In this document: positions 46,701-49,700 of the stretch, in pieces
Layout: every line of letters starts with the position of its first letter
Numbering within the stretch: position 1 is the first letter of the stretch
Source of the DNA: Opitutales bacterium
Lineage (GTDB): Bacteria; Verrucomicrobiota; Verrucomicrobiia; Opitutales; PNEW01
NCBI GenBank assembly: GCA_965197745.1
Contig: CBDANS010000007.1
Coordinates: 448,001 to 512,000 of the forward strand
Direction of reading: 5' to 3'
Length of the DNA: 64,000 nt
Program-made: the position numbers

Positions 46701-49700
46701 CCTTAACACCTAACACTTAAAACTTAACACTGATCGATAGATCACGCATCATTCAATAGTTACTTCATCGGTTTCGACGGTGATGACATCACCGTCTTCG
46801 TTGGCGAATGTAGCATCGATGCTTTGGGTCGGTTGAGGTGTGTTGTCCGACTTGAAGTTGTTCTGGGTGATCAGGGTCTCAAACCCGGTCGTGGTTGAAC
46901 CACTCTCAGCGACGACGACCGCAGCGCCATTCGTCTGCAAGAGGTCGCCACCGGTGATCCGCAACCCGGGGTTGCCGGCCGGTACCGTGAAGGACCCATC
47001 TCCGAACAGGAGGTGCGGCACCGCGTCACCATCGGCATCGATGTCTCCCACCGTTAAGCGTACCGCAATCGGCACTCCGCGCGCATCCACGCCTACTTTT
47101 CCGGTGCTTCCTGAAAAAACAGTGTTTGACAGTTGCACTCCTCCCAGTCCCGTGGAATTGACTACTTCCACGAGGGTCACGTCCGCCTGGGCGTCATAGA
47201 CCTGTCCTTCGGGGAAAAGGGCCTGGTTAAAGGCGTTGATCCTGCCCACGGTGAAGATACTGAAGAACGTATTGGCGTCCGCACCGTCGATGACCACGCT
47301 CGGCTTGCCCGTCACGTACTCTACGGCCTGGTTGTAGCGTGGGGGAATGGCCGGGGGGAGGAAGGTGGCTGGGTCCAGGGTTACGGTAAAGGTCCCATTA
47401 CCTGAAAATTCTACCTGAACAATGTCCTCGTTTTCGTCCATGAAGGAGACGCGGGTGATCTGTCCCGGCTTGGCCTGGAGTTGGACGGACTCCCCGGTGA
47501 GTAAAATCTGGTCGAAGACGTTGCCGTTGGCATGCTGAATATCTTCACCGGCGATATCGCCCGAGCCATCGAGGACGAGGGGAACGGAGGGTGCGGCTAC
47601 GGTGATGACCGCGGTATCACTGTCAGCGGTGCCGCCGGCGTTGGAAACCTGTACCCAGTAGCTCGTGCTCGCGGTGAGAGCGCCTGTGTCTAAGGTGTCA
47701 GCGGTCGCGCCAGCAACGGGAGCTACGGTGTCACCGCTGTTGCCGGTATACCATTGGTAAGTGAGATCATCACCGCTGGCGGCAACGGACAAGCTTGCCG
47801 CTGCGCCAGATGCGACTTCCTGGCTTGTCGGTTGGGTGGTGATAGCGGGGGCATCAGCGGGTGGGGGACCCTCGGAGCCGGTGCCCGGGGCTCCGATCGG
47901 GGTAAAACCAAAATCGTCGACTCCAGTACGACTGAATAGAGGGTTTATATCCGGGTCATCTTTCATCACAAGTCTGCTAATGCCACCCGGGGCTCCTAAT
48001 TCATCCGCATTAATCGTTATGAAACCAGGTTTGAAATCAGGGGTAAGATCCCCTTCCAGATTAATAATTGTAGTGAGTAAGTTATCGTTCGTATCATAGA
48101 CTTCGATTGAGCCGTCAGGATCGGTACTGCTTGTTGTCACGATCGCAGCGGCAAAAAAATCAATTTCATAAACTGGAGTTTCAAAAGTGATGGTCGCTTC
48201 TTCACCATTAAGTATTGCATAAGAATGAGGGAGCGATCGTACTACTGGGGCGCTACCTGATACAAAGACGATAGATCCCCCTTCAAAACTAGCAGTATTA
48301 GGCGACGTCCCAATGACTAATGGTTCTAATAATCCTGCCCCCACACCAAATTCACTAAAAGTGCTGAAAACCGTATTGTTTGAGGGGAAATCGGTCAGGG
48401 TGAATCCCAGGTCGTCGAGTACGAATTTTCCTGTTACATTCAAAACTTTCACTTCTATAATGCCACCGAGGAAATCAAAATCACTTTGATCCTGAAAAAA
48501 ACCGCTGTCGGCTACAAAGCTATATAAAGGGGGATTGGCACCGGGGCTGATATTTGCTGGCAGGTTTTCGACAACCCCATCGTCACCGATAACAATTATC
48601 GTCTGGCGTTCTGGTCCGAACGTACCAGAATTTATTGCTCCCCTGAACTCCATCCTTCCAGCGCCCGTTGTTTCTCCCGCATAAAATTCGATAAATTGAA
48701 TTCCCCTTGCAGTAGAAATTCTTCCCTCCTGTCCGGGCCCCAGGGTGATCGCTTTGGTTCCGGAGTGTAAGAGTGCCGAATCCTCTAATGTCTCTAACGT
48801 AAAACCGGTGAGCGTCACCGTGTTTGGCTCTTGCCCGATAATGATAGTGCCTTCCCCGCTGATGTCTTCGAAATCTGTAAACACCTCCAGGTCTTGTGGC
48901 AGGGCCATGAGAAGCACAGGAGATAAAACTGAGATAATTAAGAGCGCCAGAGATTTTTTTAATAACATGCAATACTTTTTTAGGCGTTAAATATTAAGAG
49001 ATTGGAATTTATAATTAGTGGTATGCCGGGCCGTCAATTTTAAACTCATTTTTAATATTATTTTGCATATATATAGAATACAACAGCTTTTCGCGTTTGT
49101 TTCCACCCTTGTCATTGCGAAGTGGGAACGTGGTGTCCCTGCCGCATTTAATATTTCAATAGAGTTAAAAAGAGTGGTAGGGGATTGAGTCAATAAGTCA
49201 ATAAGTTCAAGGTTCAAAAGATCTTTGAAATAACTTAAACGACTACTGTATCTTCCGTTATTTCTGGTGTCTCCTCTGATCGCATTTCCTTTTTGACTTT
49301 TTGACTTTTTGACTTTTTGACCCTATCCAATACTTCCGATGATAGATATAATTGAAAGTGGGCTGATTTACCGGGGTGAGGAAAGCGACCCGCATTTTCG
49401 CAATTCATACTGGCCCAGTGTTGTGGAACTCGAGAACGGGGTGCTTCTTGCAGCCATGGATATCAGTAATTATATCAACAGCCGAGATGCCCGTTCTTAT
49501 TACAGTATTTCTAAAGACAATGGAAAGAGCTGGAGTGAGCCAAAGATAATCTGGGATGGTGAGGGATGGTCATATCCCTTTCATACAACCTGTCGCATCA
49601 GCAAATCCCCCGGTGGTGAGGTCATAGGATTCATGGCAATCAAAGACCGATCTGATAGTGAGCAACCCCATACCAACCCTGAAAATGGCGGCATGATAGA

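What a model noticed while it worked through the whole genome (the two positions that open the first line are those of the whole stretch)
46749..48968. 95-gene family sharing an unnamed, highly conserved C-terminal beta-helix domain on secreted proteins
95 genes of this genome (2.3% of all calls; representative g02670, C7:494749-496968) end in the same ~280-aa domain that no Pfam/NCBIfam model covers and that nearly always closes with E-[ILV]-T-I-E. It is fused behind at least 13 unrelated N-terminal parts (a 52-member group with two CBM-like jelly rolls + Ig_7, CAP, polysaccharide lyase, PPIase, PQQ propeller, CARDB, FG-GAP, RCC1) that mostly start with a signal peptide, so it behaves as a shared C-terminal module (anchor/sorting/display domain) of a lineage-restricted surface-protein system rather than as one enzyme family.
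Evidence so far: HMM of 15 paralog C-termini vs proteome: 95 genes at E<1e-5, 87 with the domain within 5 aa of the C-terminus. Among 70 full-length members the C-domain is 81% identical (median, all 2415 pairs alignable) while N-parts are 49% and only 1347/2415 pairs align. AlphaFold2 of the domain with a 30-row alignment: pLDDT 95.6, pTM 0.92, all-beta solenoid; Foldseek vs PDB no hit at E<=0.001; VIA-align best Z 6.5 to parallel beta-helix tailspikes and pectate/alginate lyases. Pfam scan of g02670 at E<=10 finds only Ig_7 at 374-457; no Pfam domain overlaps the domain in any of the 95 genes and the only NCBIfam rows (3 genes) cover N-parts. In 121 sampled Verrucomicrobiota genomes only this genome and on [...]
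(Added by a program. Inside this text positions count along the whole contig: contig position 448,001 is position 1 of the stretch shown here. "Call 12" and the like, gene names such as g00115 and contig names such as C1 are that model's own, and its searches are not shown. The text may have been shortened before it was handed on; [...] marks where a part breaks off. The agent that wrote the report below was given it as the finding of a first reader that could run no searches.)

Follow-up and report, generated by a model that had tools for sequence, protein, structure and literature searches.

The report
Shared unnamed beta-helix module on secreted proteins
About ninety genes of this uncultured marine Opitutales bacterium carry the same strongly conserved, unnamed 280-residue all-beta domain, mostly behind variable sugar-binding heads, which looks like a common docking or retention module for exported proteins whose partner is still unknown.

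Summary
The ORF at 46749-48968 (-) encodes a 739-aa protein: signal peptide, two CBM-like jelly rolls, Ig_7, then a 280-aa domain that no Pfam or NCBIfam model covers. tblastn finds 99 pieces, about 94 loci, in the 4.45-Mb genome. Of 84 near-complete copies, 75 end within 5 aa of the C-terminus and 54 end E-[ILV]-T-I-E. AlphaFold2 gives pLDDT 95 for an all-beta solenoid that resembles parallel beta-helices only generically (best Z 6.4).

New here:
- Conservation reflects purifying selection (C-domain pN 0.07, pS 0.58; N-part pN 0.36), not homogenisation. Rare sharp gene-conversion tracts do exist.
- The conserved 3' half has odd codon use (GC3 0.62-0.68 against a genome median of 0.455).
- The domain is wider than the lineage: 717 cluster representatives, with proteases, nucleases, GH16, GH71 and beta-lactamase-like enzymes as cargo.
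- It is not strictly C-terminal: 91 of 129 representatives are C-terminal, 21 N-terminal, 11 internal and 6 stand-alone.
- About 15 polar residues are near-invariant.

Best reading (about 0.4): a non-catalytic retention or docking module that binds one conserved ligand. Rivals are a lyase-like catalytic domain, an export signal and an assembly unit. No partner, localisation or expression evidence was obtained.

The parts
46749..48968 (-). Representative gene, 739 aa: signal peptide, two CBM-like jelly rolls, Ig_7, unnamed C-terminal domain
   Evidence: ORF list and translation; Pfam and NCBIfam scans
48900..48968 (-). Signal-peptide-like N-terminus (aa 1-23). There is no lipobox cysteine, and the conserved P-Q-D-L-E motif follows directly.
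   Evidence: Read from the translation. 64 of 84 family ORFs have such an N-terminus by my heuristic. No signal-peptide predictor was available.
48390..48893 (-). First CBM-like beta jelly roll (aa 26-193)
   Evidence: AlphaFold2 of aa 24-365 with 30 rows: pLDDT 88.7. VIA Z 10.4 to 8x8h, a carbohydrate-binding domain, with 126 aa aligned at rmsd 3.0; Z 9.8 to CBM61. Foldseek E 4.6e-9 to the tandem CBM22 of 4xup.
47880..48380 (-). Second CBM-like beta jelly roll (aa 197-363)
   Evidence: VIA Z 10.1 to 8xmz, a porphyran-binding CBM, with 124 aa aligned at rmsd 3.2; Z 9.8 to 8wc1
47598..47849 (-). Ig_7 (PF19081) Ig-like spacer, aa 374-457
   Evidence: Pfam E 1.5e-10, 41.6 bits against a cut-off of 27.3
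46752..47591 (-). Unnamed 280-aa all-beta (beta-helix-like) domain, aa 460-739. The stop codon is at 46749-46751.
   Evidence: About 94 loci in the genome. pLDDT 95.0. No Pfam, NCBIfam or PDB sequence match. Near-invariant polar residues in 95 distant homologs.
61774..63999 (-). Second family gene in the window (741 aa, same architecture). Its C-domain is at 61777-62616 and is 95% identical to the first.
   Evidence: Pfam Ig_7 at 376-459.
16612..18555 (-). Third, divergent family gene (647 aa). Its C-domain is at 16615-17442, is 63% identical and ends NTTVE. No Pfam family matches it.

Best explanation
The 280-aa domain is a non-catalytic, modular retention or docking domain. It folds as a beta-solenoid and uses a conserved cluster of polar residues, possibly with Ca2+, to bind one invariant ligand of the producer. 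The ligand is most plausibly a glycan or protein of its own envelope or matrix.

In this way it would hold many different Sec-exported cargos at the same place. In this Opitutales family the main cargo is a set of about 53 paralogous pairs of CBM-like lectin heads on an Ig spacer. The result would be a large repertoire of glycan-binding proteins with variable heads on a constant foot, encoded among sugar-utilisation genes.

Shown: the modularity, the constraint, the fold class, the cargo diversity and the export signals. Inferred: the binding, the ligand and the location.
For: Modularity.
- C-domains on unrelated cargos are 83-90% identical to one another: PQQ propeller against CBM96 0.90, FG-GAP 0.88, RCC1 0.87, CAP 0.83 (cargos).
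- Distant homologs (40-50% identical) carry it behind S8 proteases, beta-lactamase-like domains, GH16, GH71, an ExeM/NucH nuclease and propellers. An Ig domain usually lies directly before it.

Constant foot, variable head. In 43+44 majority-class genes of two genomes:
- The C-domain has pN 0.07, pS 0.58 and aa identity 0.88.
- The N-part has pN 0.36, pS 0.76 and aa identity 0.47.
- Values are the same within and between genomes, so there is no homogenisation.

A specific conserved site. In 95 homologs under 55% identity, these residues are kept in 91-100%: H20, D27, Q28, R47, D52, D56, E61, Y86, Q88, Y92, Y132, D137, N156, Q219 and N221. Many lie in loops.

Export. 64 of 84 copies have signal-peptide-like N-termini, and secretin genes are present.

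Heads. The N-part folds as two CBM-like jelly rolls with no catalytic domain.

Position. The domain sits at a terminus in 112 of 129 representatives. From my own knowledge, that is usual for modular anchors such as SLH, LysM and dockerin, which also occur at either end.

Analogy (recalled, not tested). Ig_7 is named for preceding the CHU_C sorting domain in Bacteroidota. ExeM-type nucleases and ScyF-type NHL proteins elsewhere carry C-terminal sorting tails.
Against: - No ligand or partner was identified. Neighbours within three genes show no recurrent candidate, only transposase-like ORFs, PhyH-like proteins, SSS transporters, binding proteins and sulfatases.
- There is no complementary distribution with PEP-CTERM proteins. 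Genomes with the domain have 5-18; genomes without it have 2-32.
- Stand-alone copies (6 of 129) and internal copies (11 of 129) exist. An anchor without cargo is hard to explain.
- The invariant Arg and acidic cluster on a beta-helix would also fit a Ca2+-dependent lyase site.
- The best structural neighbours are lyases and depolymerases, although only at Z 6.4.
- No evidence was obtained on localisation or expression.
Confidence: 0.4

Rival explanations
1. The domain is the catalytic module of a new polysaccharide-lyase-like (or hydrolase-like) family. The CBM-like heads target one chemistry to many glycans.
For: - The architecture CBM-CBM-Ig-beta-helix is a classical carbohydrate-active-enzyme layout.
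- The top structural rows are alginate and pectate lyases, pectin methylesterases and tailspike depolymerases.
- R47 with D52, D56 and E61 are near-invariant in distant homologs.
- Stand-alone secreted copies exist.
- Neighbours are sugar-utilisation genes.
- Strong purifying selection fits an enzyme.
Against: - Z 6.4 with rmsd 4.3 over 176 of 280 residues lies inside the range that the tool itself calls a common arrangement.
- Foldseek gives 0 hits at E<=0.001.
- A profile search of PDB sequences finds nothing, and no Pfam lyase model hits at E<=10.
- Fusion behind proteases, a nuclease, a cyclophilin, beta-lactamase-like domains, GH16, GH71 and a Polysacc_lyase domain is unusual for a catalytic domain.
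- About 53 paralogs with nearly the same 'catalytic' part but diverged CBMs is the reverse of what expanded enzyme families usually show (my knowledge).
Confidence: 0.2
2. The domain is an export signal domain recognised by a dedicated outer-membrane translocon, working like the T9SS C-terminal domain or a TPS domain.
For: - It is shared by very different cargos, is mostly at the extreme C-terminus (75 of 84 here; 91 of 129 representatives) and follows an Ig spacer.
- In the giant repeat proteins with an N-terminal copy, the domain follows the leader directly, as TPS domains do.
Against: - It also occurs at the N-terminus, internally and alone.
- At 280 aa it is far larger than known C-terminal sorting domains (my knowledge).
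- No conserved neighbouring translocon gene was seen.
- No T9SS, PEP-CTERM or TPS model matches it.
- The ShlB/TpsB search found nothing, but its control also rang nowhere, so that result is uninformative.
Confidence: 0.13
3. The domain is a self-assembly unit. The constant beta-solenoids pack into oligomers or a lattice that presents the variable heads.
For: - Extreme constraint is spread over most of the domain's surface residues (aa identity 0.88 at pS 0.58).
- Many co-encoded paralogs could co-assemble.
- Tailspike-like solenoids are often trimers (my knowledge; tailspikes appear among the rows).
Against: Nothing here speaks for an interface. Distant homologs keep mainly loop and polar residues rather than a face, but without model coordinates this could not be mapped.
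Confidence: 0.1

Closest known systems
T9SS C-terminal domains of Bacteroidota (Por_Secre_tail, and CHU_C preceded by Ig_7)
   Same: One C-terminal module is shared by proteases, nucleases, glycosidases and adhesins. An Ig-like spacer (here Pfam Ig_7) lies directly before it. There are dozens of carriers per genome.
   Different: - This domain is 280 aa and beta-solenoid-like rather than about 80 aa and Ig-like.
- It gets no HMM match.
- It also occurs N-terminally, internally and alone.
- The host is a Verrucomicrobiota member. I did not search this genome for T9SS components.
Dockerin/cohesin and SLH-type modular anchors
   Same: These are non-catalytic modules at either end of many unrelated secreted enzymes. 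They are more conserved than their cargo and are thought to bind one common partner.
   Different: There is no sequence or fold relation. No scaffold or cohesin-like partner was found. This domain is three to four times larger.
Right-handed parallel beta-helix proteins (pectate and alginate lyases, tailspike depolymerases, and the lyase-like binder Cthe_2159)
   Same: All-beta solenoid. The best structural rows are 6kfn Z 6.4, 7xks 6.2, 6c72 6.2 and 4phb 5.4.
   Different: Only generic likeness: no Z>=8, Foldseek best E 1.6, and no sequence relation. Two 14-residue strands at the N-terminus are atypical.
Surface glycan-binding proteins (SusE/F-like) of Bacteroidota polysaccharide-utilisation loci
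   Same: Non-catalytic tandem CBM-like domains encoded among sugar-utilisation genes. 7kwb, SGBP-B, is among the Foldseek hits of the N-part at E 5.0e-7.
   Different: Those proteins are lipoproteins tethered by an N-terminal lipid. Here there is no lipobox, and the constant part is a C-terminal protein domain.

Membership tests
T9SS C-terminal sorting domain (Por_Secre_tail / CHU_C) | Match to the family HMMs at the extreme C-terminus | tested here: not met
   Pfam at E<=10 and NCBIfam at E<=10 give nothing on aa 460-739.
T9SS C-terminal sorting domain (Por_Secre_tail / CHU_C) | Small (about 70-100 aa) Ig-like beta sandwich, always C-terminal (recalled definition) | tested here: not met
   The domain is a 280-aa solenoid-like model. 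It is N-terminal, internal or alone in 38 of 129 representatives.
PEP-CTERM / exosortase substrates | PEP motif, transmembrane helix and basic tail at the C-terminus (PF07589) | tested here: not met
   The protein ends in acidic EVTIE with no hydrophobic helix. PF07589 is not among its Pfam rows. The genome has only 6 PF07589 matches, all elsewhere.
Pectate-lyase-like parallel beta-helix enzymes | Clear structural superposition on a solved member | tested here: inconclusive
   Best Z 6.4, rmsd 4.3, 176 aa aligned. 42 chains reach Z>=5 and none reaches Z>=8. Foldseek gives 0 hits at E<=0.001.
Pectate-lyase-like parallel beta-helix enzymes | Sequence match to a lyase or hydrolase family model or to a solved chain | tested here: not met
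   No Pfam row at E<=10. The profile search against PDB sequences gives only a chance row at E 1.7.
Pectate-lyase-like parallel beta-helix enzymes | Catalytic activity (Ca2+-dependent beta-elimination) | not testable with these tools
   An invariant Arg and acidic cluster exists, but its geometry could not be inspected.
Two-partner-secretion TPS domain | N-terminal Haemagg_act HMM match and a TpsB (ShlB) transporter in the genome | tested here: inconclusive
   No Pfam match on the domain. The ShlB search of the own genome found nothing, but the control genomes did not ring either.
Carbohydrate-binding modules (N-part only) | Beta jelly-roll fold superposing on solved CBMs | tested here: met
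   Foldseek E 4.6e-9 to tandem CBM22, with 234 hits at E<=0.001. VIA Z 10.4, 10.1 and 9.8 to CBM structures, each covering one half.
Carbohydrate-binding modules (N-part only) | Demonstrated glycan binding, or a CAZy family HMM match | tested here: not met
   No CBM Pfam family on P0001 at E<=10. Binding itself is not testable here.

The most novel reading that the evidence does not exclude
The domain is the attachment tag of an undescribed cell-surface display system of Opitutales, and possibly other PVC bacteria. A single beta-solenoid 'foot' would dock roughly 90 different exported proteins per cell to one envelope receptor. This would give the cell a coat of about 50 different tandem-lectin heads plus proteases, nucleases and glycosidases. 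Functionally it would be a Verrucomicrobial counterpart of T9SS-CTD or cellulosome docking, evolving by head diversification and segmental gene conversion.
Probability: 0.3. Interest if true: 0.8.

Novelty: new variant of a known kind. Interest (0 to 1): 0.6.

Why it matters
How Verrucomicrobiota place enzymes and binding proteins on or around the cell is poorly known, yet marine Opitutales are important degraders of complex algal glycans. A module carried by about 2% of the genes of a genome, under very strong constraint and with no family model, is a direct handle on that question. It defines a testable secretome. It gives a bait for finding the receptor or machinery. It also marks a repertoire of about 50 diverged tandem CBM-like heads whose specificities could be mapped on glycan arrays. 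At the least it deserves a family model, so that hundreds of proteins stop being annotated only by their Ig domain.

Tried and rejected
- Homodimer prediction of the C-domain (alignment A1, 2 copies) gave 'no answer', score 0.00. It counts neither for nor against self-association.
- The search for a conserved neighbouring partner within three genes of each copy found none.
- The test for complementarity with PEP-CTERM proteins showed no pattern.
- The ShlB/TpsB search found nothing, and its controls were silent, so it is uninformative.
- The ESM Atlas returned only 'hypothetical protein' clusters: best 0.91 Verrucomicrobiota, 0.84 Planctomycetota. These are leads only.
- Foldseek against viral structures gave 0 hits at E<=0.001. 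PADLOC gave nothing. Rfam on 44000-53000 gave 0 matches at E<=0.1.
- Expression: no RNA holder was listed among 22 runs.
- Concerted evolution as the cause of conservation is rejected. C-domain pS is 0.58 and is equal within and between genomes.
- A diversity-generating retroelement as the source of head variation was considered but not pursued. Head divergence is old (pS saturated at 0.76), and I did not search for a reverse transcriptase.
- Literature: five full-text searches, seen only as listings and abstract starts, returned no paper on this domain. No paper was read.
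Full report
THE OBJECT

The ORF at window 46749..48968 on the - strand encodes 739 aa and ends EVTIE. 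Pfam at E<=10 finds only Ig_7 at aa 374-457 (41.6 bits, cut-off 27.3) and three sub-threshold Ig-type rows on the same stretch. NCBIfam finds nothing at E<=10. The last 280 residues (aa 460-739, window 46752-47591) are therefore uncovered by both libraries.

COPY NUMBER

tblastn of these 280 residues against the laid genome (7 contigs, 4,451,628 bases) gives 99 HSPs at E<1e-5.
- They lie in 99 ORF pieces, about 94 loci once four frameshifted loci are joined.
- 84 ORFs hold at least 230 aa of the domain without an internal stop.
- In 75 of the 84 the domain ends within 5 aa of the C-terminus.
- 54 of the 84 end exactly E-[ILV]-T-I-E, so 'nearly always' is too strong.
- 64 of the 84 have a signal-peptide-like N-terminus by my heuristic. 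Most of the other 20 look 5'-truncated.
- Median pairwise identity of the domain is 0.80 over 3486 pairs.
- The window itself holds three copies.

Independent public runs support the multicopy state. In four runs of three studies, the summed contig depth over the domain is 200-1400, against 6-20 in the flanks. These are contigs, so this shows presence and repetition only.

CARGO

53 of the 84 ORFs belong to one architecture: signal peptide, a conserved P-Q-D-L-E start, an N-part of about 340 aa, Ig_7, then the domain.

AlphaFold2 of the N-part (30-row alignment A2) gives pLDDT 88.7 and pTM 0.82, with two beta jelly rolls.
- Foldseek finds the tandem CBM22 modules of 4xup at E 4.6e-9, and 234 hits at E<=0.001.
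- VIA-align gives Z 10.4 (8x8h), 10.1 (8xmz, a porphyran-binding CBM) and 9.8 (CBM61), each on one half.
- No catalytic domain is present.

The other ORFs carry trypsin-like+PPC+CARDB, RCC1, CBM96, CAP, a PQQ-type propeller, cyclophilin, Polysacc_lyase or FG-GAP+Ig_7. Four of the 19 scanned have no family. Their C-domains are 83-90% identical to C-domains on other cargos, so the module has been exchanged between unrelated genes.

THE DOMAIN'S FOLD

With a 27-row alignment (A1), AlphaFold2 gives pLDDT 95.0 and pTM 0.92, all strands.
- Foldseek finds nothing at E<=0.001 in the PDB (best E 1.6) or among viral models.
- An exhaustive VIA-align search gives a best Z of 6.4 (6kfn alginate lyase, 176 aa, rmsd 4.3).
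- Below it come pectate lyases, pectin methylesterases and tailspike depolymerases. None reaches Z 8, and the tool rates that level as a common arrangement.
- A profile search of PDB sequences finds nothing.

So it is beta-helix-like, with no demonstrable relative.

DISTRIBUTION

Relatives named by the tool are 'MAG: Opitutales bacterium' and 'Verrucomicrobia bacterium Opi.OSU.00C'.
- Among 31 relatives, 5 genomes have the domain: the own family 3 of 3 plus G000 (79-80 matches in the two near-complete ones, where at most 80 candidates are scored, and 30 in the 82%-complete one), and one genome of another family with 5.
- In a sample of 301 Opitutales genomes, 13 have it at E<=1e-5, in five families. 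One 6-Mb genome has 54 first-look candidates.
- In a sample of 401 Verrucomicrobiota genomes, only 4 have it, all Opitutales. It was not found in the others searched.
- An exhaustive phmmer against 1.84 billion cluster representatives gives 717 proteins at E<=0.001 and 414 at E<=1e-30.
- The word-index search found 805, none with a name. The best 120 were all at least 91% identical.

I ran 87 Pfam scans and 24 NCBIfam scans. In none did a listed stretch fall on the domain.

Distant homologs carry it behind S8 subtilases, beta-lactamase-like domains, GH16, GH71, an ExeM/NucH nuclease, NHL and DUF5122 propellers and long Ig arrays, usually with an Ig domain just before it. In these proteins the chain ends with a hydrophobic strand plus N-P or similar, instead of T-I-E.

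I transcribed 137 of the 150 listed representatives, and 129 of them had at least 180 aa matched. Of those 129, 91 have the domain C-terminal behind cargo, 21 N-terminal with 100-870 aa after it, 11 internal and 6 alone.

The N-terminal class has two kinds of member:
- Giant repeat proteins whose leader weakly matches the 'Planctomycete extracellular' motif (20.5 bits, below the cut-off).
- A recurrent form of about 450 aa with an unassigned tail of about 140 aa.

EVOLUTION

I aligned 43 majority-class genes of this genome and 44 of the close relative G001 by codon.

| Region | pS | pN | aa identity |
|---|---|---|---|
| C-domain | 0.58 | 0.07 | 0.88 |
| Ig | 0.61-0.65 | 0.14 | 0.75-0.76 |
| N-part | 0.76 | 0.36 | 0.47 |

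- The three comparisons (within each genome and between them) give the same values. 24 of 43 genes have reciprocal best partners in the other genome.
- Ordinary genes of the window are 88-94% identical to their best matches in G001 and G002.
- Hence the paralogs are older than the split of these genomes. The domain is held by purifying selection, not by homogenisation.

Recombination is nevertheless visible.
- Five pairs have N-part pS below 0.1 but C-domain pS above 0.3, with identity dropping from about 100% to 75-80% at a sharp point inside the C-domain.
- Of 3741 pairs, 8 hold a tract of at least 100 codons at 97% identity or more inside genes otherwise under 90% identical.
- One gene is nearly identical between the two genomes.

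The conserved 3' half also has its own codon use. GC3 is 0.62 (Ig) and 0.68 (C-domain), against 0.41 in the N-part. The genome median is 0.455, with a 95th percentile of 0.596. This may reflect biased gene conversion or translational selection. It also explains why pS saturates lower there.

CONSERVED SITE

In 95 homologs under 55% identity to the query, these residues are kept in 91-100%: H20, D27, Q28, R47, D52, D56, E61, Y86, Q88, Y92, Y132, D137, N156, Q219 and N221, together with several glycines. Many lie outside strands. The last 60 residues are poorly conserved. This points to one specific binding, metal or catalytic site.

CONTEXT

Copies are scattered: 54 single, 15 pairs, 3 triples and 1 quadruple. 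No recurrent partner lies within three genes. The recurrent neighbours are transposase-like ORFs, PhyH-like proteins, SSS transporters, binding proteins and sulfatases. The representative gene lies between a 489-aa ORF that I did not scan (by eye it looks like a glycosidase) and a 371-aa ORF, a small membrane protein and an SSS-type transporter (the last has 31-34 matches per related genome).

PEP-CTERM matches number 5-18 in genomes with the domain and 2-32 in genomes without it, so there is no complementarity. Secretin genes are present.

READING

The pattern is one highly constrained module, exchanged among unrelated exported cargos, mostly terminal, with a conserved polar site, under diverging ligand-binding heads. 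This fits best a non-catalytic docking or retention domain that binds one conserved ligand of the producer (about 0.4).

The rivals are:
- A lyase-like catalytic domain (0.2), not excluded because of the Arg and acidic cluster and the beta-helix likeness.
- A dedicated export signal (0.13), weakened by the N-terminal, internal and stand-alone forms.
- A self-assembly unit (0.1).

No call tested binding, location or expression. The dimer prediction gave no verdict, and no RNA run was listed. Five literature searches, seen as listings and abstract starts only, returned nothing on this domain.

VERDICT

This is a real, well-supported and unnamed domain family with an unusual expansion of about 90 copies. 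The functional label remains an inference. Two points need correction: the domain is not strictly C-terminal, and it is not confined to this lineage.

Noticed in passing
window 46752-47849 against 47874-48899, and the same split in 43 paralogs: There is a compositional break inside the genes. GC3 is 0.68 in the C-domain and 0.62 in Ig_7, but 0.41 in the N-part. The genome's ORF median is 0.455, with a 95th percentile of 0.596. Biased gene conversion or codon selection may be the cause; it remains unexplained.
   Followed up: partly
G000 C4:21794-24022 against C5:218741-220969; C7:1488791-1491112 against L077; six further pairs: These are mosaic paralogs. Identity is about 100% at nucleotide level over hundreds of codons, then drops abruptly to 72-80%, with the break often inside the C-domain. 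Eight such pairs occur among 3741. Some tracts are shared between the two genomes.
   Followed up: partly
G000 C4:24590-26815 and L047:1617-3840: One family gene is nearly identical (98.8% nucleotide identity) between this genome and G001, although ordinary orthologs differ by 6-12% at protein level. This could be recent transfer or cross-assembly.
   Followed up: no
window 46620-46710: An intergenic repeat of about 85 nt lies 40-130 nt downstream of the stop codon. It contains an imperfect inverted repeat and has about 45 copies in the genome, many of them not next to family genes. Its fold is not more stable than shuffles (z -0.78).
   Followed up: partly
window 49290-49321: Four tandem copies of the octamer TTTTTGAC lie in the divergent intergenic region just upstream of the + strand gene at 49339. 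Similar arrays occur at about 19 genome places. Read depth spikes here in all four runs (272-364 against about 14 in three runs, and 107 against about 7 in the fourth).
   Followed up: partly
window 51263-52849: The sodium:solute-symporter-type gene belongs to a large expansion: 34 and 31 matches in G001 and G002, many in open frames of 860-900 aa that suggest fusion with another domain.
   Followed up: no
G000 C7:133177-134604 and C4:13120-14490; P0165, P0164, P0179, P0194, P0201, P0205: A recurrent class of about 450 aa has the domain directly after the signal peptide, followed by a beta-rich tail of about 140 aa with no Pfam or NCBIfam family.
   Followed up: partly
G000 C4:156710-157532, C6:1112582-1113834, C7:1365382-1366625, C7:2001298-2003279, C6:728964-731726: These family copies are broken: four are split by frameshifts and one carries an internal stop. 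About 20 more are 5'-truncated.
   Followed up: partly
29 ORFs within three genes of family copies, for example G000 C4:42096-42941, C4:154727-155593 and C5:215988-216854: ORFs of one transposase-like family (by eye; not scanned against a library) recur next to family genes.
   Followed up: no
runs X1-X9: The best holders of this locus are runs filed under organism names (coded A, B and C; three studies) rather than as metagenomes. This would fit a host-associated bacterium. It was not pursued, and no RNA holder was listed.
   Followed up: no
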